IMG/VR virus record: IMGVR_UViG_2925914267_000005
Location: 1 to 20,458 of that record
Length of the DNA: 20,458 bases
From: a virus
Lineage: Duplodnaviria > Heunggongvirae > Uroviricota > Caudoviricetes
Reading direction: 5' to 3' (one strand)
Each line of letters opens with the position of its first letter. The stretch's first letter is position 1. Made by a program: the position numbers and the translations under genes. A model generated the notes under the pieces. It made no database searches. It had not been told where the DNA came from and saw nothing but the letters and a program-made list of their open reading frames with translations. Below are positions 1 to 16,814 of this stretch, in pieces.

Positions 1-8
1 TCACTCTG

Positions 9-90: not shown

Positions 91-260
91 TTAGTATAAA
101 AAAGCTGAATGAGAAACGTAAAATGATATAAATATCAATATATTAAATTAGATTTTGCATAAAAAACAGACTACATAATACTGTAAAACACAACATATGC
201 AGTCACTATGAATCAACTACTTAGATAGCATTAGTGACCTACAACAGAGCATTAGCGCAA
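91..260 (-). other. attR: Prophage attR (P-O-B' junction): 15-bp lambda att core at 91-105 plus lambda attP P arm (about 106-260)
   Basis: Reverse complement of 91-105 is GCTTTTTTATACTAA, followed outward by CTTGAGCGAAACGGG (attB B' side as recalled); reverse complement of 106-260 reads like the lambda P arm (…AGGTCACTAAT…GTTGATTCATAGTGACTGCATATGTTGTGTTTTACAGTATTATG…). Confidence 0.85.
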
Positions 261-418: not shown

Positions 419-446
419 TTGACGCGAGGTCGCACGGAAGTATAAT
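419..446 (+). promoter_or_regulatory. Putative sigma70 promoter for the acyltransferase gene: -35 TTGACG (419-424), 16-bp spacer, -10 TATAAT (441-446); 6-bp inverted repeat cctcgc/gcgagg (412-417 and 424-429) flanks the -35
   Basis: Hexamers read directly; positioned about 30 bp upstream of the ATG at 479. Confidence 0.5.
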
Positions 447-478
447 TCGTAGTCTTTCTACGTAGTTTAGGGAACAAT

Positions 479-1561
479 ATGTCGTCTAATAATCGACTCC
501 ATTATCTTGATGGTATTCGTGGCTGGGCCGCAACTATTGTTGTCTTCGGGCACACCATGGGGGGCGTGATTGCAATTGACGCACCTAATTTTGTAAATCA
601 TCAATGGATGAGCTTTTTTACAAATGCTCATCTTGCTGTTTTGGTATTTTTTGTTTTATCAGGCTACGTCCTGAGCGTTAGCCAAATCTACTCATCAAAA
701 CGTAATACTGCGGTATCCACCGTTGCAAGATTATTCAGATTGGCTCTTCCGATTCTGTTCGTAAGCCTTGTCGCATATATCATGATGAGGTTAAACCTAT
801 TTTTCAATGTTCAAGCCGCTACTAATGACATATCGAAATCGTGGTTAGGGACATTTTTCAGGTTTGAGCCGTCACTACCTGGTGTATTTTCCTTTTCATT
901 TTTCGATGTATTTTTCGCTTATGATACTCCGACATCATACAACTCTTCATTATGGACCATGCCTATAGAAATGGCTGGGTCAATTCTAATTTATTCATAC
1001 ATAGCTATATTCAGAACTGAAAAATTCAACTGGATAATTTCTTCCATTTTAATAGTTTATTTCTATTTTTATAGCCCATTCATGTTCTGCTTTATGGTTG
1101 GGTATGTTCTGGCTGAACTGAAAAAAATTAACAACCTATACCTGAGTGGTAGAAATGAAATACCGTTGATATTTATTTTCTTTGCCATGATCTATCTGGA
1201 TACATACCATAGGCCGGTTGATGAGATTATTCAGGCGCTTGAGGCGGTAGTATTTGTTGTTGTAATATCTTACAGCAAAACTTTATCATCGCTGTTCTCA
1301 TCAAGAGCATCAAGATTTATGGGCAGGATTTCGTTTTCTCTATATCTAGTTCAGATACTGGTTATTTGCTCATGGTCTTCGTACATGAAGATTTTACTAT
1401 CAAACTCTGGTATTAATATAAATATTGCAGCCTCAATAAACCTCATATCATCCATGGCTTTGTGCATATTAACAGCAAGAGCCATGACTCCTATTGATGA
1501 ATTTAGTGTTAAACACTCCAAAACCATTGCTTTTAAATTATTAAATTTATGCTCTAGGTAA
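479..1561 (+). CDS. Integral-membrane acyltransferase family 3 protein, probable O-antigen/LPS O-acetyltransferase (prophage moron)
   Basis: 360-aa ORF; N-terminal motif LDGIRGWAATIVVFGHT typical of acyltransferase-3 family; multiple hydrophobic segments; markedly AT-rich relative to neighbours. Confidence 0.75.
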   Translation: MSSNNRLHYLDGIRGWAATIVVFGHTMGGVIAIDAPNFVNHQWMSFFTNAHLAVLVFFVLSGYVLSVSQIYSSKRNTAVSTVARLFRLALPILFVSLVAYIMMRLNLFFNVQAATNDISKSWLGTFFRFEPSLPGVFSFSFFDVFFAYDTPTSYNSSLWTMPIEMAGSILIYSYIAIFRTEKFNWIISSILIVYFYFYSPFMFCFMVGYVLAELKKINNLYLSGRNEIPLIFIFFAMIYLDTYHRPVDEIIQALEAVVFVVVISYSKTLSSLFSSRASRFMGRISFSLYLVQILVICSWSSYMKILLSNSGININIAASINLISSMALCILTARAMTPIDEFSVKHSKTIAFKLLNLCSR

Positions 1562-2174
1562 CCAAGTCGTCAAGATGCACTTTAAGCCCCATAAGGGGCT
1601 TTCCATTCGCTCAGGTCTATCGAATCCACCATCCTGGCATACTAAAATGTTAATCGATATGCCATCAATCACTTCTTTCTCTTCATCCATTTCTGCCACG
1701 TAAATTGCGGCAATCGTATGGACGCTTTTCCTCAATTGGTTCATTATTTTTCCGATATGTCACACCCCATATTTAGATTTCAACGTTATTAGATCACTCG
1801 CAAACTGTTCCTTCAGCATTGGATATTTAGCTTGCTAATGCTGCATGATTGCTTCCATCAGTTAAAGATGCAGAACTAAAAGCTAACGTAAGAAATGAAA
1901 CATTCTCTTGATATGCTTTACTTAAGCTTTTCAGCTCTTTTTTGTATAGATAAGCATTTATTGTTGATTCTGAAATAATTTTATACTCCAGCTACTGACA
2001 GAATTTACTATTTGATGAATTGTGTTTATCTCCTAATGAGTGCTTAACATTTTAATTCATTACAATTTCCTTATATTCAAGGTATTTTTCAAGATCTTGC
2101 TCACAACGGAATATTGATACTAATTGACTTTCATCATTAGTTGAAAGTTGGATGTATAGATTCATCAATAGTCC

Positions 2175-3329
2175 TTAAATAGTATACCCACTTACACCAA
2201 CAGTTAAGCTAGATACTGATGATGTTGTCCAAGTGAATGTATAATAAATTGTTTGAGGGTTCTGGATTAGAAGCTCATAGTAAAAATCGACGCCAGTAGA
2301 TCTACTTAAACCAGCATATGCCTGGAAATACCCTACATCCTGGGTATCAGAAGCAATTGAAGCAGCTGCATAACCATCACCTTCCCCTGTGTTACAAAAC
2401 ACATAACCAGTACAGGTTGCTGCGTTTTTCGGGATCGCGTTTGTAAGAGAAATTGGAGTATACCCACCTGGGTTGCTACTGGTTGACAGTACATCAACTC
2501 GCTGGGTAGCGAACTTTCTCCCTCTTTGGTACCCAATTTTTAACAGCGCCCCAGATGTTGTTCCCCACACCGATACCAAAGCGCTCGCCGTATATCCTGC
2601 TGGCATGTTTGCACCACCATATACCGTGGGAGCAATAATAGAAGTGACGTCCTGAGCAAGTAATGCCGAGGTATCTGTCGTCGGGTTATAAATCAGGTAA
2701 ATTGCAACCCAACCACTGGCTGGCGCACTACCAGTATCCATGCCACCCGCCCCAGTCGTGGTGAGATTGATGGTTTTGTTGACCGAGCTTAAACGGTACT
2801 GCTTACCAGATAATGACTCACCAACAATGACTTGATCAGCAGTGAACGTTGCTGATGCCGACGCTATTGCCACGCTCATTTTCTGGTTAACAGCCTGACC
2901 AACCACGCCGGTGAATGATTCTCGCATCTTGAGGTAATCACTTAGCGGCGACCACCCAGCTGAAGAAGTATTAGGGTCGTTTGTGTTGTTGTTGATAGTG
3001 CTGATATAAATCGTTGCGCCGTCATCACTGATGAGAACAGCTCCAAGAGGATACCCTCCAACCGCCGTTGAAAAATCTGAGTCAAAAGCATTAAGAGCGC
3101 CTGCGCTAGACCATCTGCAAAGGGAAGACAACTCATACAAGATTTGATTCATGTCCTGCCCTTTGGGAGGAAGGCCCCCGGCAGATTTCAAAATCATTGT
3201 TATTGGTGGGAATCCTAAATCGTAGGATGCTGTATTATCTCCAGCTGGAGTTGTCGGCAGAAGATCCTCTCTTTGACCATTTACTCCAAAAGGTTTTGGT
3301 TGTTTTTTGGGTGAGTCAGAGCGATTCAT
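2175..3329 (-). CDS. Phage tail fiber protein
   Basis: 384-aa ORF; N-terminal GFPPITMILKSAGGLPPKGQDMNQILYEL resembles tail-collar fibre domain; Ser/Thr/Gly-rich C-terminal region; last gene of the baseplate operon. Confidence 0.7.
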   Translation of the reverse strand: MNRSDSPKKQPKPFGVNGQREDLLPTTPAGDNTASYDLGFPPITMILKSAGGLPPKGQDMNQILYELSSLCRWSSAGALNAFDSDFSTAVGGYPLGAVLISDDGATIYISTINNNTNDPNTSSAGWSPLSDYLKMRESFTGVVGQAVNQKMSVAIASASATFTADQVIVGESLSGKQYRLSSVNKTINLTTTGAGGMDTGSAPASGWVAIYLIYNPTTDTSALLAQDVTSIIAPTVYGGANMPAGYTASALVSVWGTTSGALLKIGYQRGRKFATQRVDVLSTSSNPGGYTPISLTNAIPKNAATCTGYVFCNTGEGDGYAAASIASDTQDVGYFQAYAGLSRSTGVDFYYELLIQNPQTIYYTFTWTTSSVSSLTVGVSGYTI

Positions 3330-3331
3330 AC

Positions 3332-3970
3332 TTAATTCCTATAAAATGTGCCATCATTAAACGGGTAGGCGTCAGATGAAAAACCGAAATAAGGACTAAT
3401 AATTTTTCGAATATTTACCTGAACACCACTAGGAACTGGCATTACTTCATAATTTGTGAGAATAGATTCCTCGTATGGTGCAAGTTCAAACTCGAATGTT
3501 ATTCCAATGGTCATATCTCGATAATTCACACAGTATGCCCTTCCTCTTTGAAAAAATAATATCTTTAAAAACTTGTTGATTTCTGGAATCGTAGCAATAC
3601 TTATGTTCGTAAACGCTTTGCAAAATATGAGTGTTCTGTAAGCCTCGTCACTCAATCTAACATTTGTTGTCTCCTGTGCTCCTCCAAAAAAAGGAGAGTT
3701 GTTGAACGGAGCGGGGTAATTTGGTTCTGCATTATCAGCTTCACTGAATCCGAAGGAATTGGTCTCTATAGGTGAGTTAATATAGCGACTTATCCCTACT
3801 ATTTTCCCCCACATATCCAGGCCGAATGTATCACAGGTAGTCAAATCCCATACTTTTTTAATAAACTCATCAGTGAAATCATCAAGGCTAATTGCCTGAT
3901 TAAAGGTATCAATGATGGATAGTAATTTTTTGCTTGCAGAGTACTGGGTAAGAATTGTGTCCTCCCACAT
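3332..3970 (-). CDS. Phage tail/baseplate protein (P2 gpI / Mu gp48 position)
   Basis: 212-aa ORF between the baseplate J-like gene and the tail fiber gene, matching P2 V-W-J-I-H order; family assignment by position only. Confidence 0.45.
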   Translation of the reverse strand: MWEDTILTQYSASKKLLSIIDTFNQAISLDDFTDEFIKKVWDLTTCDTFGLDMWGKIVGISRYINSPIETNSFGFSEADNAEPNYPAPFNNSPFFGGAQETTNVRLSDEAYRTLIFCKAFTNISIATIPEINKFLKILFFQRGRAYCVNYRDMTIGITFEFELAPYEESILTNYEVMPVPSGVQVNIRKIISPYFGFSSDAYPFNDGTFYRN

Positions 3971-3980
3971 ACATTTCCCC

Positions 3981-5210
3981 CTACGATAATGTAACAGTGA
4001 TATCTGATTCCTGAATGGTTGGAACCTGGTCTATGCCCATAGTCACAGCCGGTCCGTATAGTGAACCATCGAGAGAAACTTCAAGAGACAAAATTCCAAC
4101 TGTATCAGGAGATATTGAAATAACAGGGGCATAGTATTTACCAGCATTTATCGTCGAACCAATTCGTGCCTTTCCAATACCCTCATATCCTCCATTGAAC
4201 ACAGTGACAATCATTTCCTTTACTTGTTTAGTAATATCACTTGGGGGATTTAGTGAAGCATCGACATTTACCTTAAAGTAAACCCGCGTAGGTGATGCCT
4301 TTTGCCATTGCATTACATAAGATGGATATGGCGGCATGTAATTAACGTTATCGTAAACAGTGAACGTTGTATTACCATTCATATTGGCCCCGGGGTTATA
4401 AGTATTGAATATTGACTCAGCAACATCCGTATCAGCCCCGCCATAAACACAAATATAAACAGAATGCGCAAGAATCGGGAAATTCGTTGTTCCTTTATTT
4501 ACTGTTTCTGCAGTTCTGTTTGACCATACGTAAGCATCAAGCACACCATCAGTCGCAAGTAACGCGGCTAATGTAGATGCGTCCTGATTTCGACTGTTTC
4601 TGGCAACTGATTGTCTCCGGCGAGTTTCAAAGGCGATCCGTGATTCAACATCAACACCAACGACTCCAGGGCTAGTATTATTTACAGCATCCCACCCGGA
4701 AACGGCTCGATAAATCTGGTTCAGTGAACCTGCGGCACACGGAATCGGCCCGGTTGTTGTGTTGACAAACTGCACATCAACAGAGCCTGATGAGGGTATT
4801 ACAGCATTATCAATTGACTGATATATATACCCGCTCGTATCCACAGCGGTACTCCCTGCTGGTATTGTTGTTCCAACCTGACCAATGCATGTTGCTGTAA
4901 CAACTGTCCCCTGAGCAGCGATCCGCTCCATAAAGTAAATCCGACCAATCCCGTCCTGGAATCTGCCGGTTGAAAAGTCAGGGTTAATTTGATTAAACAA
5001 ACAAAGAAGCTTGTCGTATTCCTGAGCGATAATTTCAGTGTCAGACTGGGCGATCTGCCCTTGCGGTGAACTCAGTGACTGACTTGCGCCACCGCCAAGG
5101 GCCGTTGACATGTCTGTAAGTCTTCCCGCCAATACATCTGCTATATCGGGGACTGAAAGACCGTTTTCAGTGATGGTTACATCAGGAACAGCCGTATTTA
5201 ATGTCGTCAT
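3981..5210 (-). CDS. Baseplate J-like protein (P2 gpJ / Mu gp47 family)
   Basis: 409-aa ORF; size, position and sequence character consistent with baseplate J family; start overlaps upstream gene by 4 nt. Confidence 0.65.
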   Translation of the reverse strand: MTTLNTAVPDVTITENGLSVPDIADVLAGRLTDMSTALGGGASQSLSSPQGQIAQSDTEIIAQEYDKLLCLFNQINPDFSTGRFQDGIGRIYFMERIAAQGTVVTATCIGQVGTTIPAGSTAVDTSGYIYQSIDNAVIPSSGSVDVQFVNTTTGPIPCAAGSLNQIYRAVSGWDAVNNTSPGVVGVDVESRIAFETRRRQSVARNSRNQDASTLAALLATDGVLDAYVWSNRTAETVNKGTTNFPILAHSVYICVYGGADTDVAESIFNTYNPGANMNGNTTFTVYDNVNYMPPYPSYVMQWQKASPTRVYFKVNVDASLNPPSDITKQVKEMIVTVFNGGYEGIGKARIGSTINAGKYYAPVISISPDTVGILSLEVSLDGSLYGPAVTMGIDQVPTIQESDITVTLS

Positions 5211-5566
5211 AAGGTGGCCTGTGCAATATTACCATTGATATCTGTAACGCGGATTGTCCCGCGAGTTGTGCGTGTATTCTTGTCAAAGAAAACTGACGCC
5301 AGAGCATCCTCAACAACGGGTAATTTGAGTGCTTCAGCCTGCATTTTCTGAGCAATAAAACCAGGAGATGGTCGCCTGCCAAGAACTTCTGCCTTCCATG
5401 GGATCCCAAGTGTATTGTCGTAATAACACTCTCCTGAAAACACCAGGCATGCACTGGCGACATCCTGAGCAACAGAATATGATTCTTCTGCGATCGCCAG
5501 ATTGCCATTTCCGTCAAGCGTCAAGTCCCACGTAGAAGTGTCCAGCTGCATAGTTCTGTATGTCAT
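5207..5566 (-). CDS. Small baseplate wedge protein (P2 gpW / Mu gp46-like)
   Basis: 119-aa ORF between the V-like and J-like genes; translational coupling at both ends. Confidence 0.5.
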   Translation of the reverse strand: MTYRTMQLDTSTWDLTLDGNGNLAIAEESYSVAQDVASACLVFSGECYYDNTLGIPWKAEVLGRRPSPGFIAQKMQAEALKLPVVEDALASVFFDKNTRTTRGTIRVTDINGNIAQATL

Positions 5567-6255
5567 GTCGGTTTATCCGTTGCATTGGAATTTATTGTTG
5601 ACCCACCACTTTGTATTCCTGAAACAGAATGTTTGTGATTGTTATAGTTGTCCCTTAAATTTTTAACAGTAGATGACTGTGAGTCTGCGTTATCCTGAAT
5701 ATCGCCACTAACTTTAAGTAAAGGCGTATTCATGTTGACTCCATCAGGAGCATCAATATTTAACGATGAGCATTTGATATTTAGTGGGTTAGGCGTGGTT
5801 ATATTTATTGCACCGTCAGCGAATTCAATGAATTGAGTAGGTGAAATGTTTAATACCCCACCAAGATAAATCGCATCCGATTTACTGTGTCGTCTTTTGC
5901 TTCCAGGTACTGATTCTTTACGATTTTTTCTTACCAGTGATGTGTCTTTGTCGCATACCGCAATCAGACCAATATCACCTGCCACAGGGTCCATAATTAC
6001 AGCGCTGTTTCCTCTCTGCAACCGCCATACGGGAAGATCATATAAAACCGAGTTGGAAATCATTTTTCCTGTACGGTCTGTTCTGGTTAGTAAAGGAAGA
6101 ACATCAACAACTAAATCTGGTGCTTCCCCTCTGACTTCCTGAACTTTCGCTAACTCAATGAAGAAATATCCAGACATCAGCATCTCAAAAATATATTCCT
6201 GAGATTGAGCCTCACTTACCTGAGCAGGCGTTGGAGTAAATAGTTGCTTATCCAT
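5563..6255 (-). CDS. Baseplate assembly/spike protein V-like
   Basis: Start chosen at the ATG (MDKQLFTP…) that overlaps the upstream stop as ATGGATAA; the longer ORF to 6348 would overlap the upstream gene by about 100 nt; motif PVWRLQRGNSAVIMDPVAGDIGLIAV fits gpV-like fold. Confidence 0.5.
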   Translation of the reverse strand: MDKQLFTPTPAQVSEAQSQEYIFEMLMSGYFFIELAKVQEVRGEAPDLVVDVLPLLTRTDRTGKMISNSVLYDLPVWRLQRGNSAVIMDPVAGDIGLIAVCDKDTSLVRKNRKESVPGSKRRHSKSDAIYLGGVLNISPTQFIEFADGAINITTPNPLNIKCSSLNIDAPDGVNMNTPLLKVSGDIQDNADSQSSTVKNLRDNYNNHKHSVSGIQSGGSTINSNATDKPT

Positions 6256-7129
6256 TATTCTGTTGCGCCTCTGCTCTTTGTTCCGCTGTTCTGGCGGCAA
6301 TACATATTGAGTGCCATGAACCATTTGGCATCCATGATGATAATTCATGCCGAACGGAGGTTAACTTATACCTTCCGCTTGCATGTGGTAGTTCTGTTTT
6401 GATATCCACATATCTTCCAATGCAAAGGAGAGATGAATATTGCGTCTGAAACATCAGCCCCCCATTTGAAAATACAGGATATCCAACAAGTCCGTATTCT
6501 CTGGATATAAACGGAATTACATCATCTCTGTTTTTTTCTGAAGGCCAGAACTCTACTTTTGCAGGTGGCGTAGCTGACATTGCCAGTCCATAATCTGAAC
6601 AGACTCTATAAAGTTGCTCAAAAACACTTCCTTCAAAATGCGGACTTCCTGATGTTGTCATCCCTTTTACATTATTAAACACAGCTTCATAACCTGCACT
6701 TGCACAAATGGATGAGATGACATCTTCAACACTTTGCGCCCCCTGTGCTGTAAACGGGCTTGCTGGCATGTTCTGCAAATCAACATTAGAAGAAGCTGTT
6801 ATCATCAGGCTGCTTTCAGGAGCAGAATTCATGTTTGCTATTGATGAAAGCATCGTGCCAGAGAAAACAAGAGAATCATCGGCAAATACTTCAACATTTA
6901 GCTTCTGCCCTTCTCCAATAATACCATCAGCCTTCCCTGATATATCAGCAAGCCTTTCAATTCCTAACCCGTAAAGAGATATATCAGCCTGAGCGCCTCC
7001 CCGACCGGTAACAAAGTTCAGGGATACTGTTGACTTAACATTTCTGATGGAGATTTTATTGTTCCCATTTTTATCAAATGCTGATGATTCATTCGTGAAG
7101 TCAAACCGAAGACTGTGATTTTTATACAA
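6248..7129 (-). CDS. Phage tail/baseplate protein (possible hub, Mu gp44 / P2 gpD position)
   Basis: ORF runs to 7237, but the ATG starts would overlap the upstream gene by at least 80 nt; an in-frame TTG at 7129 preceded by GAGGA (8-nt spacer) overlaps the upstream stop; start uncertain. Confidence 0.4.
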   Translation of the reverse strand: MYKNHSLRFDFTNESSAFDKNGNNKISIRNVKSTVSLNFVTGRGGAQADISLYGLGIERLADISGKADGIIGEGQKLNVEVFADDSLVFSGTMLSSIANMNSAPESSLMITASSNVDLQNMPASPFTAQGAQSVEDVISSICASAGYEAVFNNVKGMTTSGSPHFEGSVFEQLYRVCSDYGLAMSATPPAKVEFWPSEKNRDDVIPFISREYGLVGYPVFSNGGLMFQTQYSSLLCIGRYVDIKTELPHASGRYKLTSVRHELSSWMPNGSWHSICIAARTAEQRAEAQQNNG

Positions 7130-7424
7130 GCTCGTTTTCCTCGATGTAGTACAGCAAGTAACGGCTACCCAAGCCTTCCCATTGCGGATCCGATTCCCCA
7201 TCATTATCAATGAAAATAAGGTCTCCCTTAAATCCAAGGTAGGAATATCTTACCATCTTATTCCCATACAGACATGGAACGCCCTGCATAATTGGGACTT
7301 CATTAACAGTTAAATCCATGTACATAAAACTCTGTCGCTGAACAAGTTTTATATTACATTGCTGACCAGACAGACTTACCGAAATGGACTGAGATTTGCT
7401 GGGAAGAACAGATACTGTAATCAT
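7122..7424 (-). CDS. Hypothetical phage tail-module protein (100 aa)
   Basis: Intact ORF with an in-frame stop 9 nt upstream and an AAGG ribosome-binding site; first retained gene after the IS600-like element. Confidence 0.4.
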   Translation of the reverse strand: MITVSVLPSKSQSISVSLSGQQCNIKLVQRQSFMYMDLTVNEVPIMQGVPCLYGNKMVRYSYLGFKGDLIFIDNDGESDPQWEGLGSRYLLYYIEENELV

Positions 7425-7573
7425 GTACTCGCCTTAACTATATTTTTTGCAATATCTGCCGCTTTTTTTGTTGCGCTGTTTGTGACTTCGAGTATTGGTT
7501 TGGATACCGTGAGGTAGCCTGAGTTTAACGGACACTCCTTCCTGAAATAGAATGGCATCAGAAGGAGCTAATA

Positions 7574-7876
7574 ATGAGCAGAAAAACCCAACGTTACTCT
7601 AAAGAGTTCAAAGCCGAAGCTGTCAGAACGGTTCTTGAAAATCAACTTTCGATCAGTGAAGGCGCTTCCCGATTATCTCTTCCTGAAGGCACTTTAGGGC
7701 AATGGGTTACCGCCGCCAGAAAAGGGCTCGGTACTCCTGGTTCCCGCACGGTGGCTGAACTGGAATCTGAAATTCTGCAACTGCGTAAGGCGTTAAATGA
7801 AGCTCGCCTTGAGCGAGATATATTAAAAAAAGCAACAGCGTATTTTGCACAGGAGTCGCTGAAAAATACGCGTTAA
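7574..7876 (+). CDS. IS3-family transposase OrfA (helix-turn-helix)
   Basis: 100-aa ORF MSRKTQRYSKEFKAEAVR…; contains the frameshift window near its 3' end. Confidence 0.85.
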   Translation: MSRKTQRYSKEFKAEAVRTVLENQLSISEGASRLSLPEGTLGQWVTAARKGLGTPGSRTVAELESEILQLRKALNEARLERDILKKATAYFAQESLKNTR

Positions 7877-7911
7877 TCGAACAATGGCGACAACAATTTC
7901 CCATTGAAGCG

Positions 7912-8730
7912 ATGTGTCAGGTATTTGGTGTATCCAGGAGCGGTTATTACAACTGGGTACAGCATGAACCCTCAGACAGAAAACAAAGTGATGAGCGGCT
8001 AAAACTGGAGATTAAGGTGGCACATATCCGCACTCGCGAAACATATGGAACCCGGCGGCTCCAGACGGAGCTGGCAGAGAATGGCATCATCGTTGGTCGT
8101 GACCGACTGGCACGTCTTCGTAAGGAGCTAAGGCTACGCTGTAAGCAGAAACGCAAGTTCAGAGCGACTACGAACTCGAACCACAATCTGCCAGTTGCGC
8201 CAAATCTGCTGAACCAGACGTTCGCTCCTACAGCACCAAATCAGGTCTGGGTGGCGGACCTGACGTATGTTGCCACACAGGAGGGATGGTTGTACCTCGC
8301 TGGCATCAAAGATGTTTATACGTGCGAAATTGTCGGCTACGCCATGGGAGAGCGCATGACAAAAGAGCTGACAGGTAAAGCCCTGTTTATGGCGCTCAGG
8401 AGCCAGCGCCCACCTGCCGGGCTAATCCACCACTCTGATCGAGGTTCACAGTACTGCGCATACGATTACCGGGTCATACAGGAGCAGTTTGGTCTGAAAA
8501 CATCAATGTCGCGTAAAGGTAACTGTTACGACAACGCTCCGATGGAAAGCTTCTGGGGAACGCTGAAAAATGAGAGCCTGAGCCACTATCGTTTTAATAA
8601 CCGGGATGAAGCCATCTCAGTAATACGGGAATACATTGAGATTTTCTACAATCGTCAGCGTCGTCACTCTCGTCTGGGGAATATCTCCCCGGCAGCCTTC
8701 AGGGAAAAATATCATCAGATAGCTGCTTAA
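7912..8730 (+). CDS. IS3-family transposase OrfB (DDE catalytic domain), normally made as OrfAB fusion by -1 frameshift
   Basis: 272-aa ORF with integrase-core-like motifs (…HSDRGSQY…NAPMESFWGTLK…). Confidence 0.85.
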   Translation: MCQVFGVSRSGYYNWVQHEPSDRKQSDERLKLEIKVAHIRTRETYGTRRLQTELAENGIIVGRDRLARLRKELRLRCKQKRKFRATTNSNHNLPVAPNLLNQTFAPTAPNQVWVADLTYVATQEGWLYLAGIKDVYTCEIVGYAMGERMTKELTGKALFMALRSQRPPAGLIHHSDRGSQYCAYDYRVIQEQFGLKTSMSRKGNCYDNAPMESFWGTLKNESLSHYRFNNRDEAISVIREYIEIFYNRQRRHSRLGNISPAAFREKYHQIAA

Positions 8731-8994
8731 AAAAAGAACAAATGGTAGTGTCCGCTATTGCCAGTACACCTCAGGGAAATATGTCGATAAATGGGCAATA
8801 CGAACGACGGCAATGATTGCCAGAGAACTTGGTAAACAGAACAACAAGGCTGCCTGATGGTGGCCTTTATTTTTGGCATAAACAACAGAATAAACACTGC
8901 ACTGTGTATTCATTCCAACGAGTGAATACACGGAGCAATGTCGCTCGTAACTAAACAGGAGCCAACTTGTTCTGATTATTGGAAATCTTCTTTG

Positions 8995-9020
8995 CCCTCC
9001 AGTGTGAGGGCAATTTTTTT
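8995..9020 (+). terminator. Possible intrinsic terminator (ccctc-cagtgt-gaggg plus T8) just upstream of the coiled-coil gene
   Basis: 5-bp GC stem and T-run read directly; short stem, so weak. Confidence 0.3.
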
Positions 9021-9033
9021 TAACGGGGGAAAT

Positions 9034-10002
9034 ATGAGTGAAGTAACAGATTTAGTTGTTATTGAAAAAGCAAATGCAATGACTGTATTTCAGTCTGCCG
9101 ACCAGATTGAAGAAATCCTTCAAAAGGTTGAACGTGAAGTTATGTCCTTTGTGCCTGATATCACAACGGCAAAGGGCAGAAAGGAGATCGCTTCTCTGGC
9201 GTATAAAGTTGCGCAGACGAAAACATATCTCGATGGTCTTGGCAAAGACCTTGTTGCTGAACTGAAGGAAATTCCAAAGCTAATTGATGCTAACCGCAAG
9301 ACAGTGCGTGATCGCCTTGATGAGCTGAAAGCCAAGGCACGCCAGCCTCTTACTGATTATGAGGAAGAACAGGCGCGGATTAAAGCCGAAGAAGAAGCTA
9401 AGGCAGCAGCTGAAGCTCTCGCAAAGCAAATTGAGTCTGACCATGAAATAGCGATTTTGATGGATCGCGAATTTGACCGCCAAAGAGAAGAGGCAAGACT
9501 CAAAGCGGAGCAGGAAAAGCGAGAGCATGAAGAACGCTTAAAAAGAGAAGCTGAAGAGAAAGCCAGAGCTGAAGCCGAAGCAAAGGCAAAAGCCGAAATT
9601 GAAGCAGCAGCAAGGCGAGAAGCAGAAGCTAAGGCCGCAGCGGAACGTGCAGAGCGTGAACGCATTGAAGCCGAGCAACGAGCACAGCGCGAAGCAAAAG
9701 AGGCAGCAGAACGAGCTGAAAGAGAAAAGCAGGCAGCAATTGAAGCAGAACGCCGAAAAGCACAGGAGGAGGCAGAACGAATCCGGCGCGAGGCTGAAGC
9801 AAAAGAGCAAGCCAGAATAGCAGAAGAAAAAAGAATCAAGGACGAAGAAGAGCGTAGAGCAAAGGATAAAGCTCACCGGAGAGAAGTAAATAACAAAATA
9901 CTTGCTGACCTTATCAAGGTTGGCGCATCAGAAGATGTTGCTAAAAATATCATAATAGCCATCGCAAAAGGCGAAGTATTCGCAACAAAAATAACCTACT
10001 AA
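9034..10002 (+). CDS. Hypothetical phage early protein with long E/A/K/R-rich predicted coiled-coil region (TolA-domain-II-like composition)
   Basis: ATG at 9034 preceded by GGGGGA; ORF could extend upstream to 8938; central ~200 aa is low-complexity EAKAR-type; occupies the position of ea10/ral/sieB upstream of cIII. Confidence 0.6.
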   Translation: MSEVTDLVVIEKANAMTVFQSADQIEEILQKVEREVMSFVPDITTAKGRKEIASLAYKVAQTKTYLDGLGKDLVAELKEIPKLIDANRKTVRDRLDELKAKARQPLTDYEEEQARIKAEEEAKAAAEALAKQIESDHEIAILMDREFDRQREEARLKAEQEKREHEERLKREAEEKARAEAEAKAKAEIEAAARREAEAKAAAERAERERIEAEQRAQREAKEAAERAEREKQAAIEAERRKAQEEAERIRREAEAKEQARIAEEKRIKDEEERRAKDKAHRREVNNKILADLIKVGASEDVAKNIIIAIAKGEVFATKITY

Positions 10003-10026
10003 TAAAACCAACATAAGGAACCACCC

Positions 10027-10197
10027 ATGATTTACGCAATCGCGGGAGGCGCTCGCATGGGTGCCTTCCAACTAAATGAATCTTTACTTGAACGAATCAC
10101 CCGTAAATTACGTGACGGATGGAAACGACTTATCGACATACTTAATCAGCCAGGAGTCCCAAAAAATGGATCAAACACTTATGGCTATCCAGACTAA
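10027..10197 (+). CDS. cIII: Lambda-like CIII (FtsH/HflB inhibitor)
   Basis: 56-aa [59 protein letters not shown], near-identical over most of its length to lambda CIII as recalled; preceded by AAGGA. Confidence 0.85.
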   Translation: MIYAIAGGARMGAFQLNESLLERITRKLRDGWKRLIDILNQPGVPKNGSNTYGYPD

Positions 10198-10309
10198 ATT
10201 CACTATCGCCACTTTTATTGGCGATGAAAAGATGTTTCGTGAGGCCGTCGACGCTTATAAAAAATGGATATTAATACTGAAACTGAGATCAAGCAAAAGC
10301 ATTCACTAA
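10166..10309 (+). CDS. kil: Lambda Kil (FtsZ-ring inhibitor)
   Basis: 47-aa [50 protein letters not shown] matches lambda Kil as recalled; overlaps cIII 3' end. Confidence 0.85.
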
Positions 10310-10680
10310 CCCCCTTTCCTGTTTTCCTAATCAGCCCGGCATTTCGCGGGCGATATTTTCACAGCTATTTCAGGAGTTCAGCCATGAACGCTTATTACAT
10401 TCAGGATCGTCTTGAGGCTCAGAGCTGGACGCGTCACTACCAGCAGATCGCCCGTGAAGAGAAAGAGGCAGAACTGGCAGACGACATGGAAAAAGGCCTG
10501 CCCCAGCACCTGTTTGAATCGCTATGCATCGATCATTTGCAACGCCACGGGGCCAGCAAAAAAGCCATTACCCGTGCGTTCGATGACGATGTTGAGTTTC
10601 AGGAGCGCATGGCAGAACACATCCGGTACATGGTTGAAACTATTGCCCGCCACCAGGTTGATATTGATTCAGAGGTATAA
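10264..10680 (+). CDS. gam: Lambda Gam (RecBCD inhibitor); GamS internal start at 10383
   Basis: 138-aa [52 protein letters not shown]… near-identical to lambda Gam as recalled. Confidence 0.92.
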
Positions 10681-10685
10681 AACGG

Positions 10686-11471
10686 ATGAGTACAGCACTC
10701 GCAACGCTGGCAGGGAAGCTGGCTGAACGTGTCGGCATGGATTCTGTCGACCCACAGGAACTGATCACCACTCTTCGCCAGACAGCATTTAAAGGCGATG
10801 CCAGCGATGCGCAGTTCATCGCATTGCTGATCGTCGCCAACCAGTACGGCCTTAATCCGTGGACGAAAGAAATTTACGCCTTCCCTGATAAGCAGAACGG
10901 CATCGTTCCGGTGGTGGGCGTTGATGGCTGGTCCCGTATCATCAATGAAAACCAGCAGTTTGATGGCATGGACTTTGAGCAGGACAATGAATCCTGCACA
11001 TGCCGGATTTACCGCAAGGACCGTAATCATCCGATCTGCGTTACCGAGTGGATGGATGAATGCCGCCGCGAACCATTCAAAACCCGCGAAGGCAGAGAAA
11101 TCACGGGGCCGTGGCAGTCGCATCCCAAACGGATGTTACGGCATAAAGCCATGATTCAGTGTGCCCGTCTCGCCTTCGGATTTGCTGGTATCTATGACAA
11201 GGATGAAGCCGAGCGCATTGTCGAAAATACCGCATACACTGCAGAACGTCAGCCGGAACGCGACATCACTCCGGTTAACGATGAAACCATGCAGGAGATT
11301 AACACTCTGCTGATTGCCCTGGATAAAACATGGGATGACGACTTATTGCCGCTCTGTTCCCAAATATTTCGCCGCGACATTCGCGCATCGTCAGAACTGA
11401 CACAGGCCGAAGCAGTGAAAGCTCTTGGATTCCTGAAACAGAAAGCCACTGAGCAGAAGGTGGCAGCATGA
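10686..11471 (+). CDS. bet: Lambda Red beta (single-strand annealing protein)
   Basis: 261-aa [41 protein letters not shown]… near-identical to lambda Bet as recalled. Confidence 0.95.
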
Positions 11472-12148
11472 CACCGGACATTATCCTGCAGCGTACCGGG
11501 ATCGACGTGAGAGCTGTCGAACAGGGGGATGATGCATGGCACAAATTACGGCTCGGCGTCATCACCGCTTCAGAAGTTCACAACGTGATAGCAAAGCCCC
11601 GATCAGGAAAGAAGTGGCCTGACATGAAAATGTCCTACTTCCACACCCTGCTGGCTGAGGTTTGCACCGGTGTGGCTCCGGAAGTTAACGCTAAAGCGCT
11701 GGCCTGGGGAAAACAGTACGAGAACGACGCCAGAACCCTGTTTGAGTTCACTTCCGGCGTAAATGTTATTGAATCCCCGATCATCTATCGCGACGAAAGT
11801 ATGCGCACCGCCTGCTCTCCCGATGGTTTATGCAGTGACGGCAATGGCCTTGAGCTGAAATGCCCGTTTACCTCCCGGGATTTCATGAAGTTCCGGCTCG
11901 GTGGTTTCGAGGCCATAAAGTCGGCTTACATGGCCCAGGTGCAGTACAGCATGTGGGTGACGCGAAAAGATGCCTGGTACTTTGCCAACTATGACCCGCG
12001 TATGAAGCGTGAAGGCCTGCATTATGTCGTGGTTGAGCGGGATGAAAAGTACATGGCGAGTTTTGACGAGATGGTGCCGGAGTTCATCGAAAAAATGGAC
12101 GAGGCACTGGCTGAAATTGGTTTTGTATTTGGGGAGCAATGGCGATGA
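11468..12148 (+). CDS. exo: Lambda exonuclease (Red alpha)
   Basis: 226-aa [68 protein letters not shown]… near-identical to lambda Exo as recalled; ATGA overlap with bet. Confidence 0.95.
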
Positions 12149-12327
12149 CGCATCCTCACGATAATATCCGGGTAGGCGCGATCACTTTCGTCTACTCCGT
12201 TACAAAGCGAGGCTGGGTATTTCCCGGCCTTTCTGTTATCCAAAATCCACTGAAAGCCCAGCGGCTGGCTGAGGAGATAAATAATAAACGAGGGGCTGTA
12301 TGCACAAAGCATCTCCCGTTGAGTTAA
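12145..12327 (+). CDS. Lambda orf60a-like hypothetical protein
   Basis: [56 protein letters not shown]…; ATG overlaps exo stop (ATGA); alternative ATG at 12139. Confidence 0.8.
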
Positions 12328-12491
12328 GAACGAGTATCGAGATGGCACATAGCCTCGCTCAAATTGGAGTCAGGTTTGTGCCAATACCAGTAGAAACAGA
12401 CGAAGAATTTCATACGTTAGCCACATCCCTTTCACAAAAGCTGGAAATGATGGTGGCGAAAGCAGAAGCAGATGAGAGAGACCAGGTATGA
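12300..12491 (+). CDS. Lambda orf63-like hypothetical protein
   Basis: 63-aa ORF in lambda order between orf60a and orf61. Confidence 0.75.
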   Translation: MHKASPVELRTSIEMAHSLAQIGVRFVPIPVETDEEFHTLATSLSQKLEMMVAKAEADERDQV

Positions 12492-12571
12492 CAACCACTG
12501 AATGCATTTTTCTGGCAGCGGGCTTCATATTCTGTGTGCTTATGCTTGCCGACATGGGACTTGTTCAATGA
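12488..12571 (+). CDS. Candidate 27-aa hydrophobic micro-protein (MTTTECIFLAAGFIFCVLMLADMGLVQ)
   Basis: Not in ORF track (too short); start ATG overlaps orf63 stop as ATGA and its stop overlaps orf61 start as ATGA; single predicted transmembrane helix. Confidence 0.35.
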   Translation: MTTTECIFLAAGFIFCVLMLADMGLVQ

Positions 12572-12783
12572 CACCTCAGCAAGAAAACGCCCTTCGCAGT
12601 ATTGCCCGTCAGGCTAATTATGAAATCAAAAAAGCCAGACAGCGGTTTCCGGATAAAAACGTCGATGACATTTGCCGTAGCGTACTGAAGAAGCACCGCG
12701 AAACGGTAACGCTGATGGGATTCACACCGACTCACTTAAGTCTGGCAATCGGTATGTTAAACGGCGTCTTTAAGGAACGGTGA
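12568..12783 (+). CDS. Lambda orf61-like hypothetical protein
   Basis: 71-aa ORF MTPQQENALRSIARQANYEIKKARQRFPDKNVDDICRSVLKKHRETVTLMGFTPTHLSLAIGMLNGVFKER matches lambda orf61 as recalled. Confidence 0.8.
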   Translation: MTPQQENALRSIARQANYEIKKARQRFPDKNVDDICRSVLKKHRETVTLMGFTPTHLSLAIGMLNGVFKER

Positions 12784-12804
12784 ACATGAAAAGCAAAATC
12801 ATCA

Positions 12805-12828
12805 GGGAGCTACAGGCTCCTTTTTTAT
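12805..12828 (+). terminator. Intrinsic terminator-like hairpin (ggagc-tacag-gctcc plus T6) after orf61
   Basis: Stem and T-run read directly. Confidence 0.5.
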
Positions 12829-12881
12829 TATTCGCATTCACCCTCAAGCGTATTAACCAACAATTCAGGGATTAATGAAAG

Positions 12882-13103
12882 ATGGCGGACATCATTGATT
12901 CAGCATCAGAAATTGAAGAATTACAGCGCAATACAGCAATAAAAATGCGCCGCCTGAACCACCAGGCTATATCTGCCACTCATTGTTGTGAGTGTGGCGA
13001 TCCCATAGATGAGCGAAGACGCCTGGCCGTTCAGGGTTGTCGGACTTGTGCAAGTTGCCAGGAAGTTCTGGAGCTTATCAGTAAACAGAGAGGTTCGAAG
13101 TGA
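12882..13103 (+). CDS. TraR/DksA-family C4-type zinc finger protein
   Basis: 73-aa ORF with CxxC…CxxC (CCECGDPIDERRRLAVQGCRTCASC) characteristic of phage/plasmid TraR-like proteins. Confidence 0.7.
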   Translation: MADIIDSASEIEELQRNTAIKMRRLNHQAISATHCCECGDPIDERRRLAVQGCRTCASCQEVLELISKQRGSK

Positions 13104-13471
13104 GCGAAATTAACTCTCAGGCACTGCGTGAAGCGGCAGAGCAGGCAATGCATGACAACTGGGGATTTGACGCGGACCTTTTCCATGAGCTGGTAACACC
13201 ATCGATTGTGCTGGCACTGCTGGATGAACGGGAAAGAAACCAGCAATACATCAAACGCCGCGACAAGGAGAACGAGGATATTGCACTAACGGTAGGGAGG
13301 CTGCGCGTTGAGCTGGAAGGCAAACACAGGCGCATTACTGAGCTGACAATGTGGATTAAGCGACTGAGTTCCTCTCTCAAAAACGCAAAACCAGACAGCA
13401 AGTTGCCGGATGACGCAATGATCTGGCTAAATAATGAAGGGCTTACCAGTATAGAGGATATTTTACGATGA
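13100..13471 (+). CDS. Ea22-like protein (N-terminal region resembles lambda Ea22)
   Basis: MSEINSQALREAAEQAMHDNWGFDADLFHELVTPSIVL…ERERNQQYIKRRD… matches recalled lambda Ea22 N-terminus, C-terminal part diverges. Confidence 0.65.
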   Translation: MSEINSQALREAAEQAMHDNWGFDADLFHELVTPSIVLALLDERERNQQYIKRRDKENEDIALTVGRLRVELEGKHRRITELTMWIKRLSSSLKNAKPDSKLPDDAMIWLNNEGLTSIEDILR

Positions 13472-14006
13472 GCACTTTTACCATGGAATGGCTACAAAAT
13501 ACGATTACCAGTATTGAGTCAGCACGAGATGAAATGCCATTCGGACTCGATAACGATCAAGCACACATGCTTACAGCATTTAAAATCGCTCTCGCCTCAC
13601 TGGAACGCGAGCGGGTTCGCCACGAGCATGCCAAATGGTCTGACTCCACATTTGGCTGCGTTGGCCCCATTGGTCCACTGAAACACCTCTCAAAAGAGGC
13701 TCTGGAAGCCGCAGCCGAACCTGACGATCTCAGCGAGTGGGCTGATATGCAGTTCCTGTTGTGGGATGCACAGCGCCGTGCTGGCATCAGCGATGCTGAA
13801 ATTAACGTTGCTATGGAAGATAAATTGAAGATCAACATGGAGCGCCAGTGGCCTGAGCCAAAAGATGGTGAGCCTCGCTTGCACATTAAAGAACCCGGCA
13901 ACTCTCCGATAATTCCGGATGGTTTACCCACGGTATGCGCTGAGGCTTATCAGGTTGTAGGAGTTATGGCAGATGCGCTTGGTGTATTCGGTGATGCAGC
14001 AGTACA
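13468..14006 (+). pseudogene. 5' fragment of a phage gene interrupted by the IS629-like element
   Basis: ORF continues in-frame across the IS if the IS and one ACA copy are removed (…GDAAV|QKVLDNL…). Confidence 0.7.
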
Positions 14007-14060
14007 TGAACCGCCCCGGGAATCCTGGAGACTAAACTCCCTGAGAAAGAGGTAAACAGG

Positions 14061-14387
14061 ATGACTAAAAATACTCGTTTTTCCCCCGAAGTCCGTCAGA
14101 GGGCGATTCGTATGGTTCTGGAAAGTCAGGGCGAATATGACTCACAGTGGGAGGCAATTTGTTCCATTGCCCCAAAGATTGGCTGTACACCGGAGACTCT
14201 GCGTGTCTGGGTACGCCAGCATGAGCGGGATACCGGAGGCGGTGATGGCGGGCTCACCACCGCTGAACGTCAGCGTCTGAAAGAGCTGGAACGTGAAAAT
14301 CGTGAACTGCGCCGCAGTAACGATATCCTTCGCCAGGCTTCCGCTTATTTTGCGAAGGCGGAGTTCGACCGCCTCTGGAAAAAGTGA
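14061..14387 (+). CDS. IS3-family transposase OrfA
   Basis: 108-aa [29 protein letters not shown]…. Confidence 0.88.
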
Positions 14388-15274
14388 TGCCACTGCTGGA
14401 TAAGCTGCGTAAGCTGTACGGGGTCGGACCGGTATGCAGTGAACTACATATTGCCCCGTCAACGTATTACCACTGTCAGCAACAGCGACATCATCCTGAT
14501 AAACGCAGTGCCCGTGCGCAGCGCGATGACTGGCTGAAGAAAGAGATACTGCGCGTATACGATGGGAATCATCAGGTATACGGTGTGCGTAAAGTCTGGC
14601 GTCAGTTGTTACGGGAAGGAATCAGGGTAGCCAGATGTACAGTGGCGCGCCTCATGGCGGTTATGGGACTTGCCGGTGTTCTCCGGGGTAAAAAGGTCCG
14701 CACTACCGTCAGCCGGAAAGCCGTTGCCGCAGGCGACCGCGTAAACCGTCAGTTTGTGGCAGAACGTCCTGACCAGTTGTGGGTGGCTGATTTTACTTAC
14801 GTCAGCACATGGCAGGGCTTCGTCTATGTGGCGTTCATCATTGATGTGTTTGCCGGATACATCGTGGGGTGGCGGGTCTCATCGTCTATGGAAACGACAT
14901 TCGTGCTGGATGCTCTGGAGCAGGCGTTATGGGCCCGTCGACCGTCCGGCACAGTCCATCACAGTGATAAAGGTTCTCAGTATGTATCGCTGGCCTACAC
15001 ACAGCGGCTTAAGGAAGCCGGATTACTGGCATCAACAGGAAGTACTGGTGACTCGTATGACAACGCGATGGCGGAGAGCATCAATGGCCTTTACAAAGCG
15101 GAGGTAATACACCGTAAGAGCTGGAAAAACCGGACAGAAGTGGAGCTGGCCACACTCACGTGGGTGGACTGGTATAACAATCGACGATTGCTGGAAAGGC
15201 TGGGCCATATCCCACCGGCAGAAGCAGAAAAAGCTTATTATGCTTCCATCGGAAACGATGATCTGGCAGCCTGA
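14384..15274 (+). CDS. IS3-family transposase OrfB (DDE domain)
   Basis: 296-aa ORF with …HHSDKGSQY… and …[13 protein letters not shown]… motifs. Confidence 0.88.
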
Positions 15275-15319
15275 GTTCACAGATAAAACACTCTCCAGGA
15301 AACCCGGGGCGGTTCAACA

Positions 15320-15581
15320 GAAAGTTCTGGATAACCTGTCACAGCAAAAACTTGTTCACAGAGATGTGCTGCCGTTCTCGCTTCCGGTAATTCCGGATGG
15401 TTGGATAAGCTGTAGTGAGCGAATGCCCGCTCAAGATGATTGGATTTTAATTTATTCAAAGCACGGCGAGTATATGGCAGGACAGGTACAAGGGGAATAC
15501 GTGGAGTTGAGCGACGGCACTTTATCGTGGTTAGGGAACGCCTTGTTCTGGATGCCGCTACCGGAACCGCCGCAGGGGTGA
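15320..15581 (+). pseudogene. 3' fragment of the IS-interrupted phage gene; C-terminal DUF551-like domain
   Basis: In-frame continuation of the 13468 ORF after the IS; C-terminus …WISCSERMPAQDDWILIY…WMPLPEPPQG resembles DUF551 phage proteins. Confidence 0.65.
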
Positions 15582-15647
15582 AATGATGCTTGGCCTGAAG
15601 TATTTTATGTAATTGGTATTGCTATATTTTTATCTGGGGATAAACGA

Positions 15648-15890
15648 ATGTTCTCTCTGATTCAACGTGGTCAGATATACACCGATAGCGCTGGCTATCC
15701 AGTAAAAATCATTCGTAGTACTGATCACTCAGTGTTCTTCAAGAGGATGGATGGCTATCCTGGAAGGGTGTGCATCAGAAAATTCAATAATTTATTCGAA
15801 CACATTGATCACAGAGAATATCACCAGATCCTGGCTGAAACAGAACAGGAGAACCATCTGAAAAAATTACGTGCCATGCAAAGGAGATAA
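15648..15890 (+). CDS. Hypothetical small phage protein (80 aa)
   Basis: ORF with plausible codon usage in the accessory region upstream of xis; no family recognised with confidence. Confidence 0.5.
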   Translation: MFSLIQRGQIYTDSAGYPVKIIRSTDHSVFFKRMDGYPGRVCIRKFNNLFEHIDHREYHQILAETEQENHLKKLRAMQRR

Positions 15891-16032
15891 GCCGATAAAG
15901 GTGTTCGCGATAAAGGTGAATATCGGCACTGAATAACAATCCTCGCACTCGCGGGGATTTCTTTTATCTGAACTCGCTACGGCGGGTTCACCGTCAAGCT
16001 TTCTTCAATGCAAAAGCCAATGTGAGGACGCT

Positions 16033-16814
16033 ATGAATACTCAAATTTCTGTTGAAACACTTTCACCAATCACCTACAAACAAACCAACGTCATCACCAG
16101 CGAACTATTGGCGCAGTTGTACGGAACGGATGTTGTGCGCATCCGGCAAAACCATCATGAAAACAAGTCGCGCTTTGTTGAGGGGGTACACCTTCTACAA
16201 GGTCGTTGGTGACGAGCTGCGCGCTAAAACACAAAGTAGCTTTAAACTACTTTGTGAAAATTGCCCCAAATGCACGCCACCTCACCCTCTGGACAGAGCG
16301 CGGAGCCGCCCGTCACGCGAAGATGCTCGAAACGGATCAGGCACGGGACGTGTTCGAAAAACTGGAGGGCGGCTACTTCAATCAGCGCGAAAAGGTTGCC
16401 AACCATCCTCAACCAGTACCGCAACCAGAAAGTAGCCTAGACCGTGCGCGAGCCATGGAAATAGCTTTGAACGTGGCGGATCGACTGGTGAATATGTTCC
16501 CGAATCTGTCCTCAGAATCAAAGCAGGCAGCAGTAGCTGGAGTGTTCAACACGATTGTTGGTCGCGATGTTGTACCTCTGCCAGCTATCTCAGAGCACTA
16601 CTACTCTGCTACGGAAGTCGGCCAGCGCTACGGTATTTCAGCCAACAAGGTAGGACGCATTGCCAATACCTACATGCTCAAAACAGAAAAGTACGGTAAG
16701 TGGTTCATCGACAAATCGGCGCACAATGACAAGCAGGTTGAAACATTTCGGTACAACGAGGCTGGAGTGCACAAAATAGAGGAACTCATCGAAGGAGAGC
16801 GAAAGGCTGCATGA
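16033..16814 (+). pseudogene. ORF6N/KilA-N-like antirepressor-family gene, apparently disrupted by frameshift(s)
   Basis: ATG at 16033 with GAGG RBS encodes MNTQISVETLSPITYKQTNVITSELLAQLYGTDVVRIRQNHHENKSRFVEGVH then stops at 16210-16212; homology-like continuation FYKVVGDELRAKTQ… is in the +1 frame and …APNARHLTLWTERGAARHAKMLETDQA… in a third frame (ORF 16206-16814). Confidence 0.5.

What the first reader, a model, noticed from the sequence alone, without database searches (positions are those of the whole stretch)
7437..9033. IS600-like element sits exactly where ~25-30 kb of phage genome is missing, with no matching target duplication
The IS lies between the first retained tail gene (7122-7424) and the early-left block (from 9034). 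Flanking triplets are ccg on the left and ggg on the right, not a 3-bp direct repeat, which fits an IS-mediated adjacent deletion or recombination between two IS copies rather than simple insertion. About 70 bp of apparent coding remnant (7437-7509) precedes the IS.
Basis: partly seen in the sequence, partly recalled or inferred. Interest (0 to 1): 0.55.

Follow-up and report, generated by a model that had tools for sequence, protein, structure and literature searches.

The report
IS600 at a prophage deletion junction
An intact IS600 insertion sequence sits where about 30 kb (immunity, replication, lysis, head and most tail genes) has been lost from a prophage at the lambda attachment site; this is ordinary insertion-sequence-driven prophage decay.

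Summary
IS600 occupies 7510-8773: 1264 bp, TG...CA ends, intact orfA/orfB and an A7G slippery site, 99.76% identical to annotated IS600 copies. Its flanks are CCG and GGG, so there is no 3-bp target duplication. Simple IS600 insertions elsewhere do carry one, and so does an IS629-like element in this same window.

The left flank (7421-7509) is the last 28 codons of a 271-aa tail gene. The right flank (8774-8857) is the last 27 codons of ral, so the early-left block starts at 8774, not 9034.

The window holds one prophage bounded by perfect lambda att cores (91-105 and 19114-19128). In an intact relative at the same site (E. coli FDAARGOS_1288) the two breakpoints lie 29,706 bp apart.

I slightly favour recombination between two direct IS600 copies over a transposase-driven adjacent deletion. 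The product is identical either way, and I found no precursor.

This is common. Only 28 of 73 distinct IS600 copies in a sample of viral contigs have a duplication, and a sister prophage carries an independent IS629-like deletion. The finding is already known in kind and of low interest.

The parts
91..105 (-). attR core, a perfect lambda 15-bp core (GCTTTTTTATACTAA). It is followed by the lambda P arm (87-292 = lambda 27742-27537). The ybhB-side host flank is at 1-90.
   Evidence: window 1-292 matches the sequence directly after ybhB in E. coli FDAARGOS_1288
7122..7424 (-). Baseplate plug gene, the last complete tail gene retained
   Evidence: Pfam Pam3_gp18, E 1.7e-24; the identical protein occurs in intact relatives
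7421..7509 (-). 3' remnant (28 codons plus stop) of the 271-aa tail-module gene. This is the left deletion endpoint.
   Evidence: L007 matches window 1-7510 at 99.987% and continues ...ggataccg|tatcaagag; PHROG 1830, unknown function
7510..8773 (+). Complete IS600 (IS3 family), 1264 bp. Imperfect terminal inverted repeats lie within about 7510-7536 and 8747-8773. orfA is 7574-7876, the A7G slippery run is 7825-7832, and orfB is 7912-8730. The flanks are CCG and GGG, so there is no target duplication.
8774..8857 (+). 3' remnant of ral (27 codons plus stop). This is the right deletion endpoint and corresponds to lambda position 34170.
8846..9021 (+). Two terminator-like hairpins with T runs (8846-8877 and 8992-9021) between the IS and the first complete early-left gene
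   Evidence: consensus scan only
9034..10002 (+). First complete retained early-left gene, a 322-aa coiled-coil protein annotated elsewhere as 'TolA'-like. It is followed by cIII, kil, gam, bet and exo.
14007..15316 (+). Second IS, an IS629-like IS3-family element of 1310 bp. It has a perfect 3-bp duplication, ACA, at 14004-14006 and 15317-19. It serves as an internal control showing what a simple insertion looks like.
19114..19128 (-). attL core, a perfect lambda core. int is at 17970-19040 and xis lies upstream. ybhC starts at 19175.

Best explanation
The window contains a single prophage integrated at the lambda attachment site between ybhB/bio and ybhC/gal. It combines lambda-type int/xis and early-left genes with a contractile-tail baseplate and an acyltransferase cargo gene next to attR. 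An internal block of about 29.7 kb has been lost, and one intact IS600 sits exactly at the joint. The lost block comprises the 5' part of ral, N, immunity, replication, the nin region, Q, lysis, terminase, head, and the tail down to most of the 271-aa gene. That much is shown directly (about 0.9). The mechanism is inferred. Most likely two IS600 copies in the same orientation once sat in the prophage, one in the 271-aa tail gene (duplication CCG) and one in ral (duplication GGG). The second copy may have arisen by a local hop of the first. Homologous recombination between them then removed the interval and one copy. This left a single IS carrying the left flank of one insertion and the right flank of the other, and therefore no matching duplication. 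The remnant cannot form particles or replicate. It keeps the att sites, int/xis, the Red genes and the acyltransferase. It has lost pL and N, and two terminator-like hairpins lie downstream of the IS, so the retained early-left genes are probably silent.
For: The IS ends are exact and the flanks are CCG/GGG. Simple IS600 insertions show 3-bp duplications in 4 of 4 cases, and the IS629-like element in the same window has ACA/ACA. The left flank is 99.987% identical to an intact relative that continues through the full tail and head module. The right flank is about 100% identical to a relative with intact ral, N and cI. The breakpoints are 29,706 bp apart, collinear and in the same orientation in a complete relative at the same site. 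There is one pair of perfect att cores. IS3-family elements move by copy-out-paste-in, which regenerates the donor, so a one-step adjacent deletion is not the expected outcome (bioRxiv 10.1101/2023.06.07.543989, read). Deletions between homologous IS copies are the standard explanation in IS-rich Shigella and E. coli (PMC7373316). In a sample of viral contigs, 45 of 73 distinct full-length IS600 copies lack a duplication. Several share one flank with different partners, and in some cases one of the versions carries a duplication, which shows flank exchange between copies.
Against: I found no precursor with two copies, or with one copy plus its duplication at either site. This holds for 5,426 complete E. 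coli genomes, IMG/VR, GTDB species representatives and JGI metagenomes. The product of two-copy recombination is indistinguishable from that of a transposase-driven intramolecular event. The IS carries no internal polymorphism that would mark it as a hybrid.
Confidence: 0.55

Rival explanations
1. One-step, transposase-driven intramolecular event starting from a single IS600 copy. One version is attack of a distant site on the same molecule by the highly active abutted IRR-IRL junction of a tandem IS dimer. Another is aberrant strand transfer. Either would delete everything between the IS and the new target and leave one IS with one old and one new flank.
For: It yields the same TSD-less product. 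One E. coli locus (L005) has two IS600 copies only 15 bp apart, the second bordering a deletion, so closely spaced copies do arise. Tandem-dimer adjacent deletions are described for IS30, IS21 and IS911; this rests on my own knowledge and was not checked here. The IS600 here is intact and presumably active.
Against: [quoted passage not shown] There is no trace of a dimer or a second copy here.
Confidence: 0.3
2. Assembly artefact. The real genome has an intact prophage with two direct IS600 copies, and the assembler collapsed them and dropped the 30 kb between.
For: A collapse through a 1.26-kb repeat would give exactly this structure. The exact junctions were not found in any other public sequence searched.
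Against: The window also crosses a second IS (14007-15316) cleanly, which suggests a long-read or finished assembly. Comparable real deletions exist in finished genomes (L034 and L038).
Confidence: 0.06
3. Not a deletion within one prophage but a chromosomal rearrangement between IS600 copies in two different prophages, joining the tail end of one to the early-left end of another.
For: Lambdoid early-left modules are mosaic. The 322-aa gene, for example, occurs in many unrelated prophages.
Against: Both ends carry matching lambda att cores in direct orientation, next to ybhB and ybhC, the two sides of the same attachment site. Relatives carry the identical integrase protein and a 100%-identical baseplate region on one contig as a single prophage of about 46 kb (L010 plus L029). 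A rearrangement between two prophages would have displaced one host flank.
Confidence: 0.03
4. The deletion arose first by an IS-independent route, and IS600 later inserted by chance at the joint.
For: None specific.
Against: A later simple insertion would carry a 3-bp duplication, as 4 of 4 simple insertions and the neighbouring IS629-like element do. Landing exactly on a pre-existing joint is improbable.
Confidence: 0.02

Closest known systems
IS600 (IS3 family)
   Same: 1264 bp, TG...CA ends, orfA (HTH) and orfB (DDE/rve) in the -1 frame with an A7G slippery run, and 99.76% nucleotide identity to RefSeq copies annotated 'IS3-like element IS600 family transposase'.
   Different: Nothing in the element itself differs. 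Only this copy's flanks lack the 3-bp duplication.
IS-mediated deletion and genome reduction in Shigella and E. coli, including 'grounded' defective prophages
   Same: An IS sits at the joint of a large deletion that removes the lytic functions of a prophage and keeps cargo genes. IS600 is one of five IS types expanded in all Shigella species and is credited with deletions between homologous copies (PMC7373316). Prophage grounding is reviewed in PMC6379469 (listing; title and abstract only).
   Different: This particular junction was not found elsewhere. It is a new instance, not a new phenomenon.
Independent deletions found here in related prophages
   Same: L034 (CP170291.1) is the same prophage lineage at the same att site. 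An IS629-like element without a duplication joins baseplate J (window-equivalent 5256) to the 3' end of N. L038 (E. coli 97-3250) has IS600 without a duplication joining truncated P to truncated sieB.
   Different: The endpoints differ, and in L034 the IS type differs too, so these are separate events.
IEE-promoted IS629/IS3-family excision and deletion
   Same: It involves IS3-family elements and generates deletions next to the IS (PMC9943667 abstract).
   Different: IEE events remove the IS, usually at microhomologies. Here a complete IS is retained with exact ends, so the signature does not fit.

Membership tests
IS600 (IS3 family) | About 1264 bp with imperfect terminal inverted repeats ending 5'-TG...CA-3' | tested here: met
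   7510-8773 = 1264 bp, TGAGGTAGCC...CACCTCA. The ends coincide with six other copies and with 76 copies from viral contigs.
IS600 (IS3 family) | Two overlapping ORFs: orfA with an HTH, orfB with a DDE/rve catalytic domain, orfB in the -1 frame, and an A-rich slippery site | tested here: met
   orfA hits HTH_Tnp_1 (1.5e-20). orfB hits rve (3.2e-26) plus HTH_21. The reading frames and the A7G run at 7825-7832 were read. Frameshifting itself was not tested.
IS600 (IS3 family) | At least 95% nucleotide identity to named IS600 copies | tested here: met
   99.76% over 1264 bp to copies annotated as IS600 family in RefSeq. ISfinder itself is not available here.
Simple IS600 insertion | 3-bp direct duplication of the target at both ends | tested here: not met
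   The flanks are CCG and GGG. Controls with duplications: AGT, AAT, AAG and GTG.
IS-associated deletion | The flanks are non-adjacent but collinear and in the same orientation in intact relatives | tested here: met
   29,706 bp apart in E. coli FDAARGOS_1288. About 29 kb in GCA_003185685.1 and about 32.5 kb in KCJ3K291.
IS-associated deletion by two-copy homologous recombination | Existence of a precursor with two direct copies, each with its own duplication | tested here: inconclusive
   No precursor was found in the collections searched. Absence there does not exclude it.
Prophage integrated at attB-lambda | Lambda-type integrase, a 15-bp core repeated at both ends, and host flanks ybhB/bio and ybhC/gal | tested here: met
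   Cores at 91-105 and 19114-19128. int/xis are 98% identical to lambda. Host flanks.

The most novel reading that the evidence does not exclude
The deletion was made in one step by IS600 transposase from a single copy, for example through a tandem-dimer active junction. That would be a natural example of an adjacent deletion by a copy-out-paste-in element. The remnant would then have been kept because its acyltransferase cargo, and possibly its Red genes, benefit the host.
Probability: 0.25. Interest if true: 0.3.

Novelty: already known. Interest (0 to 1): 0.12.

Why it matters
For annotation, it matters in three ways. The 19-kb region between ybhB and ybhC should be labelled a defective, non-inducible prophage remnant. 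The short pieces next to the IS should be labelled pseudogene fragments of ral and of a tail gene. The IS should be labelled a recombinant or deletion-bordering copy rather than a fresh insertion. Biologically, it is one more example of insertion sequences fixing a prophage in place while its cargo gene survives. It opens no new question.

Tried and rejected
1. I first read the ORF at 479-1561 as a second integrase, which would imply tandem prophages. Pfam shows it is an AT3 acyltransferase, and window 87-292 is the lambda P arm, so there is one prophage.

2. I searched for the exact right and left junctions in IMG/VR, GTDB representatives, JGI metagenomes and complete E. coli genomes. None was found.

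3. I searched for the hypothetical precursors. IS600 in the tail gene with a CCG duplication was searched in IMG/VR only. IS600 in ral with a GGG duplication was searched in IMG/VR and in complete E. coli genomes. Neither was found.

4. Some top E. coli hits shared 7-17 nt with the left flank, including a GGTT(T)GG motif, which suggested a target preference. An unselected sample of 73 IS600 left flanks shows no such motif, so the similarity was a ranking artefact.

5. I tested whether the acyltransferase is the Shigella flexneri serotype 6 oacC. The oacC prophage is SfII-like. The tail region here (window 1500-7509) has no megablast match in the phage collection. The protein's only phage hit is 28% identical, to a Pantoea phage. 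It is not oacC.

6. I looked up the IS629-truncated 195-aa protein to find the source genome. It returned only one 4-kb draft contig that does not reach the IS600 junction.

7. The IEE-type excision signature does not fit, because the IS is retained intact.

Full report
**What is at the coordinates.** The 7437-9033 span holds three things, not one.

- Positions 7510-8773 are a complete IS600. It is 1264 bp and starts TGAGGTAGCCTGAG and ends CAGTACACCTCA. orfA (7574-7876) matches HTH_Tnp_1. orfB (7912-8730) matches rve and HTH_21 and lies in the -1 frame. An A7G run sits at 7825-7832.
- To its left, 7421-7509 on the minus strand encodes VSKPILEVTNSATKKAADIAKNIVKAST*. This is the exact C-terminus of a 271-aa protein encoded just upstream of the baseplate plug gene in intact relatives.
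- To its right, 8774-8857 encodes GKYVDKWAIRTTAMIARELGKQNNKAA*, the last 27 residues of the 66-aa Ral protein. Window 8774 corresponds to lambda 34170, inside ral.

**IS ends and the missing duplication.** I used the window's IS as a query against loci fetched from complete E. coli genomes. Six further IS600 copies matched at 99.76% over all 1264 bp, with identical first and last bases.

- Four of these are simple insertions. Each has a perfect 3-bp duplication: AGT, AAT, AAG or GTG.
- Two border deletions and have no duplication. One lies between truncated P and truncated sieB in E. coli 97-3250. The other is the second of two copies 15 bp apart in UTAK-23.
- The window's copy has CCG on the left and GGG on the right, so it belongs with the second group.
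- The window carries its own control. A 1310-bp IS629-like element at 14007-15316 is absent from two otherwise identical relatives and is flanked by ACA/ACA.

**One prophage, not two.** The perfect lambda core GCTTTTTTATACTAA occurs twice in the same orientation, at 91-105 and 19114-19128. Shuffled sequence gives none.

- Window 1-292 is the sequence directly after ybhB plus the lambda P arm.
- Window 17747-19128 is xis-int-P' at 98% identity to lambda.
- ybhC begins at 19175.
- The ORF at 479-1561, which I first suspected to be another integrase, is an AT3-family acyltransferase.

The element between the cores is 19,038 bp, of which about 2.6 kb is IS.

**Intact relatives and the size of the gap.**

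- L007 (GCA_900603995.1) matches window 1-7510 at 99.987%. It then continues with the rest of the 271-aa gene, an antirepressor/Arc module, the tape-measure gene (SLT domain), the tube and sheath, and the head genes.
- L026 (GCA_001912195.1) matches window 8774-14010 and 15317-20458 at 99.98-100%. It has intact ral, N and a cI-type repressor upstream.
- E. coli FDAARGOS_1288 carries a related complete prophage at the same site: 93.6% identical in the baseplate block, 98.4% around ral, and 98% at int. There, window 7509 maps to record position 5,254,063 and window 8774 to 13,793 of a 5,269,977-bp circle. The two points are therefore 29,706 bp apart, collinear and in the same orientation.
- Its annotation shows what the window has lost: the rest of the tail, the head, terminase, lysis genes, two tRNAs, Q, the nin genes, replication genes, cII, cro, cI, sieB and the 5' part of ral.
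- Two other relatives give about 29 kb (L010 plus L029 on one contig) and about 32.5 kb (KCJ3K291).

**Mechanism.**

- Shown: a complete IS600 without a duplication joins two points that lie about 30 kb apart in the intact phage.
- Inferred: how this happened. IS3-family elements transpose by copy-out-paste-in through a circular intermediate. This regenerates the donor site, so a direct adjacent deletion is not the expected product.
- The simplest route is two direct IS600 copies, one in the tail gene and one in ral, followed by homologous recombination. This is the usual explanation for IS-associated gene loss in Shigella and E. coli.
- A transposase-driven intramolecular event, for example from a tandem dimer, gives the same product and cannot be excluded.
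- I put the two-copy route at about 0.55 and the one-step route at about 0.3. The remainder goes to an assembly collapse and to minor alternatives.
- The two-prophage rearrangement idea is contradicted by the paired att cores and host flanks, and by relatives that carry the same integrase protein and a 100%-identical baseplate region in a single prophage of about 46 kb.

**How ordinary it is.**

- A scan of IMG/VR for the IS600 left end returned at least 120 stretches. Among them were 73 distinct full-length copies with readable flanks. Only 28 have a 3-bp duplication, which is far above the 1/64 expected by chance but still a minority.
- Several copies share one flank with different partners. 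For example...aataACC|IS|ACCttcc appears with a duplication in one contig, and the same left flank appears with a different right flank in another.
- In the same prophage lineage, L034 (CP170291.1) has a separate deletion. An IS629-like element without a duplication joins baseplate J to the 3' end of N.

**Consequences for the remnant.**

- It has no immunity, replication, lysis or head genes and cannot produce phage.
- It keeps both att sites, int/xis, kil, cIII, gam, bet, exo and the acyltransferase next to attR.
- IS600 is transcribed towards the early-left genes. However, pL and N are gone and two terminator-like hairpins follow the ral remnant, at 8846-8877 and 8992-9021. Expression of those genes is therefore probably low. 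This is an inference, not a test.

**What led nowhere.** The exact junctions and both hypothetical precursors were absent from the collections searched. The junctions were sought in complete E. coli genomes, IMG/VR, GTDB representatives and JGI metagenomes. The precursors were sought in IMG/VR, and the ral precursor also in complete E. coli genomes. An apparent left-flank motif was a ranking artefact. The acyltransferase is not oacC.

**Verdict.** It is a routine case of IS-associated prophage decay.

Noticed in passing
window 14007-15316 (duplication ACA at 14004-14006 and 15317-15319): A second IS3-family element, IS629-like and 1310 bp, 99.7% identical to copies in E. coli. It interrupts a 266-aa DUF551/dATP-dGTP_PPHyd-type gene and leaves a 195-aa truncated ORF (13468-14055). 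Rfam finds its ALIL frameshift pseudoknot at 14342-14458. It is a simple insertion with a duplication.
   Followed up: yes
window 479-1561 (+): A 360-aa AT3-family acyltransferase (PHROG 'O-acetyltransferase') lies between the tail fibre gene and attR, the usual position for a lysogenic-conversion gene. Relatives at the same site carry gtrA/gtrB/gtr or a 380-aa acyltransferase instead. It is not oacC-like, and its only match in the phage collection is 28% identical, to a Pantoea phage.
   Followed up: partly
L034 (CP170291.1) 1-2200: The same prophage lineage at the same att site carries an independent deletion. An IS629-like element without a duplication joins baseplate J (window-equivalent 5256) to the last codons of N, and ral is intact.
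   Followed up: partly
L005 (E. coli UTAK-23) 6419-8961; L038 (E. coli 97-3250) 2510-3773: In L005, two IS600 copies sit 15 bp apart. The first has a GTG duplication and the second borders a deletion. In L038, an IS600 without a duplication joins truncated replication gene P to truncated sieB. These are further IS600-bordered deletions in lambdoid prophages.
   Followed up: partly
loci L040-L159 (IMG/VR contigs): Only 28 of 73 distinct full-length IS600 copies in viral contigs have a 3-bp duplication. Several insertion flanks recur with different partners, which indicates frequent flank exchange between copies.
   Followed up: partly
window 16936-17025 (+): An Rfam match to sRNA-Xcc1 (64.9 bits, above the gathering score of 53) lies just upstream of the AntA/P22_AR_C-like ORF at 17066-17689.
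   Followed up: no
window 8774-13320: The early-left region is a mosaic. Segments 97-98% identical to lambda (ral 3' end; cIII to orf61) are interrupted at 9020-10077 by a 322-aa coiled-coil gene where lambda has ea10. The same 322-aa protein occurs in many P22-like and other lambdoid prophages.
   Followed up: partly
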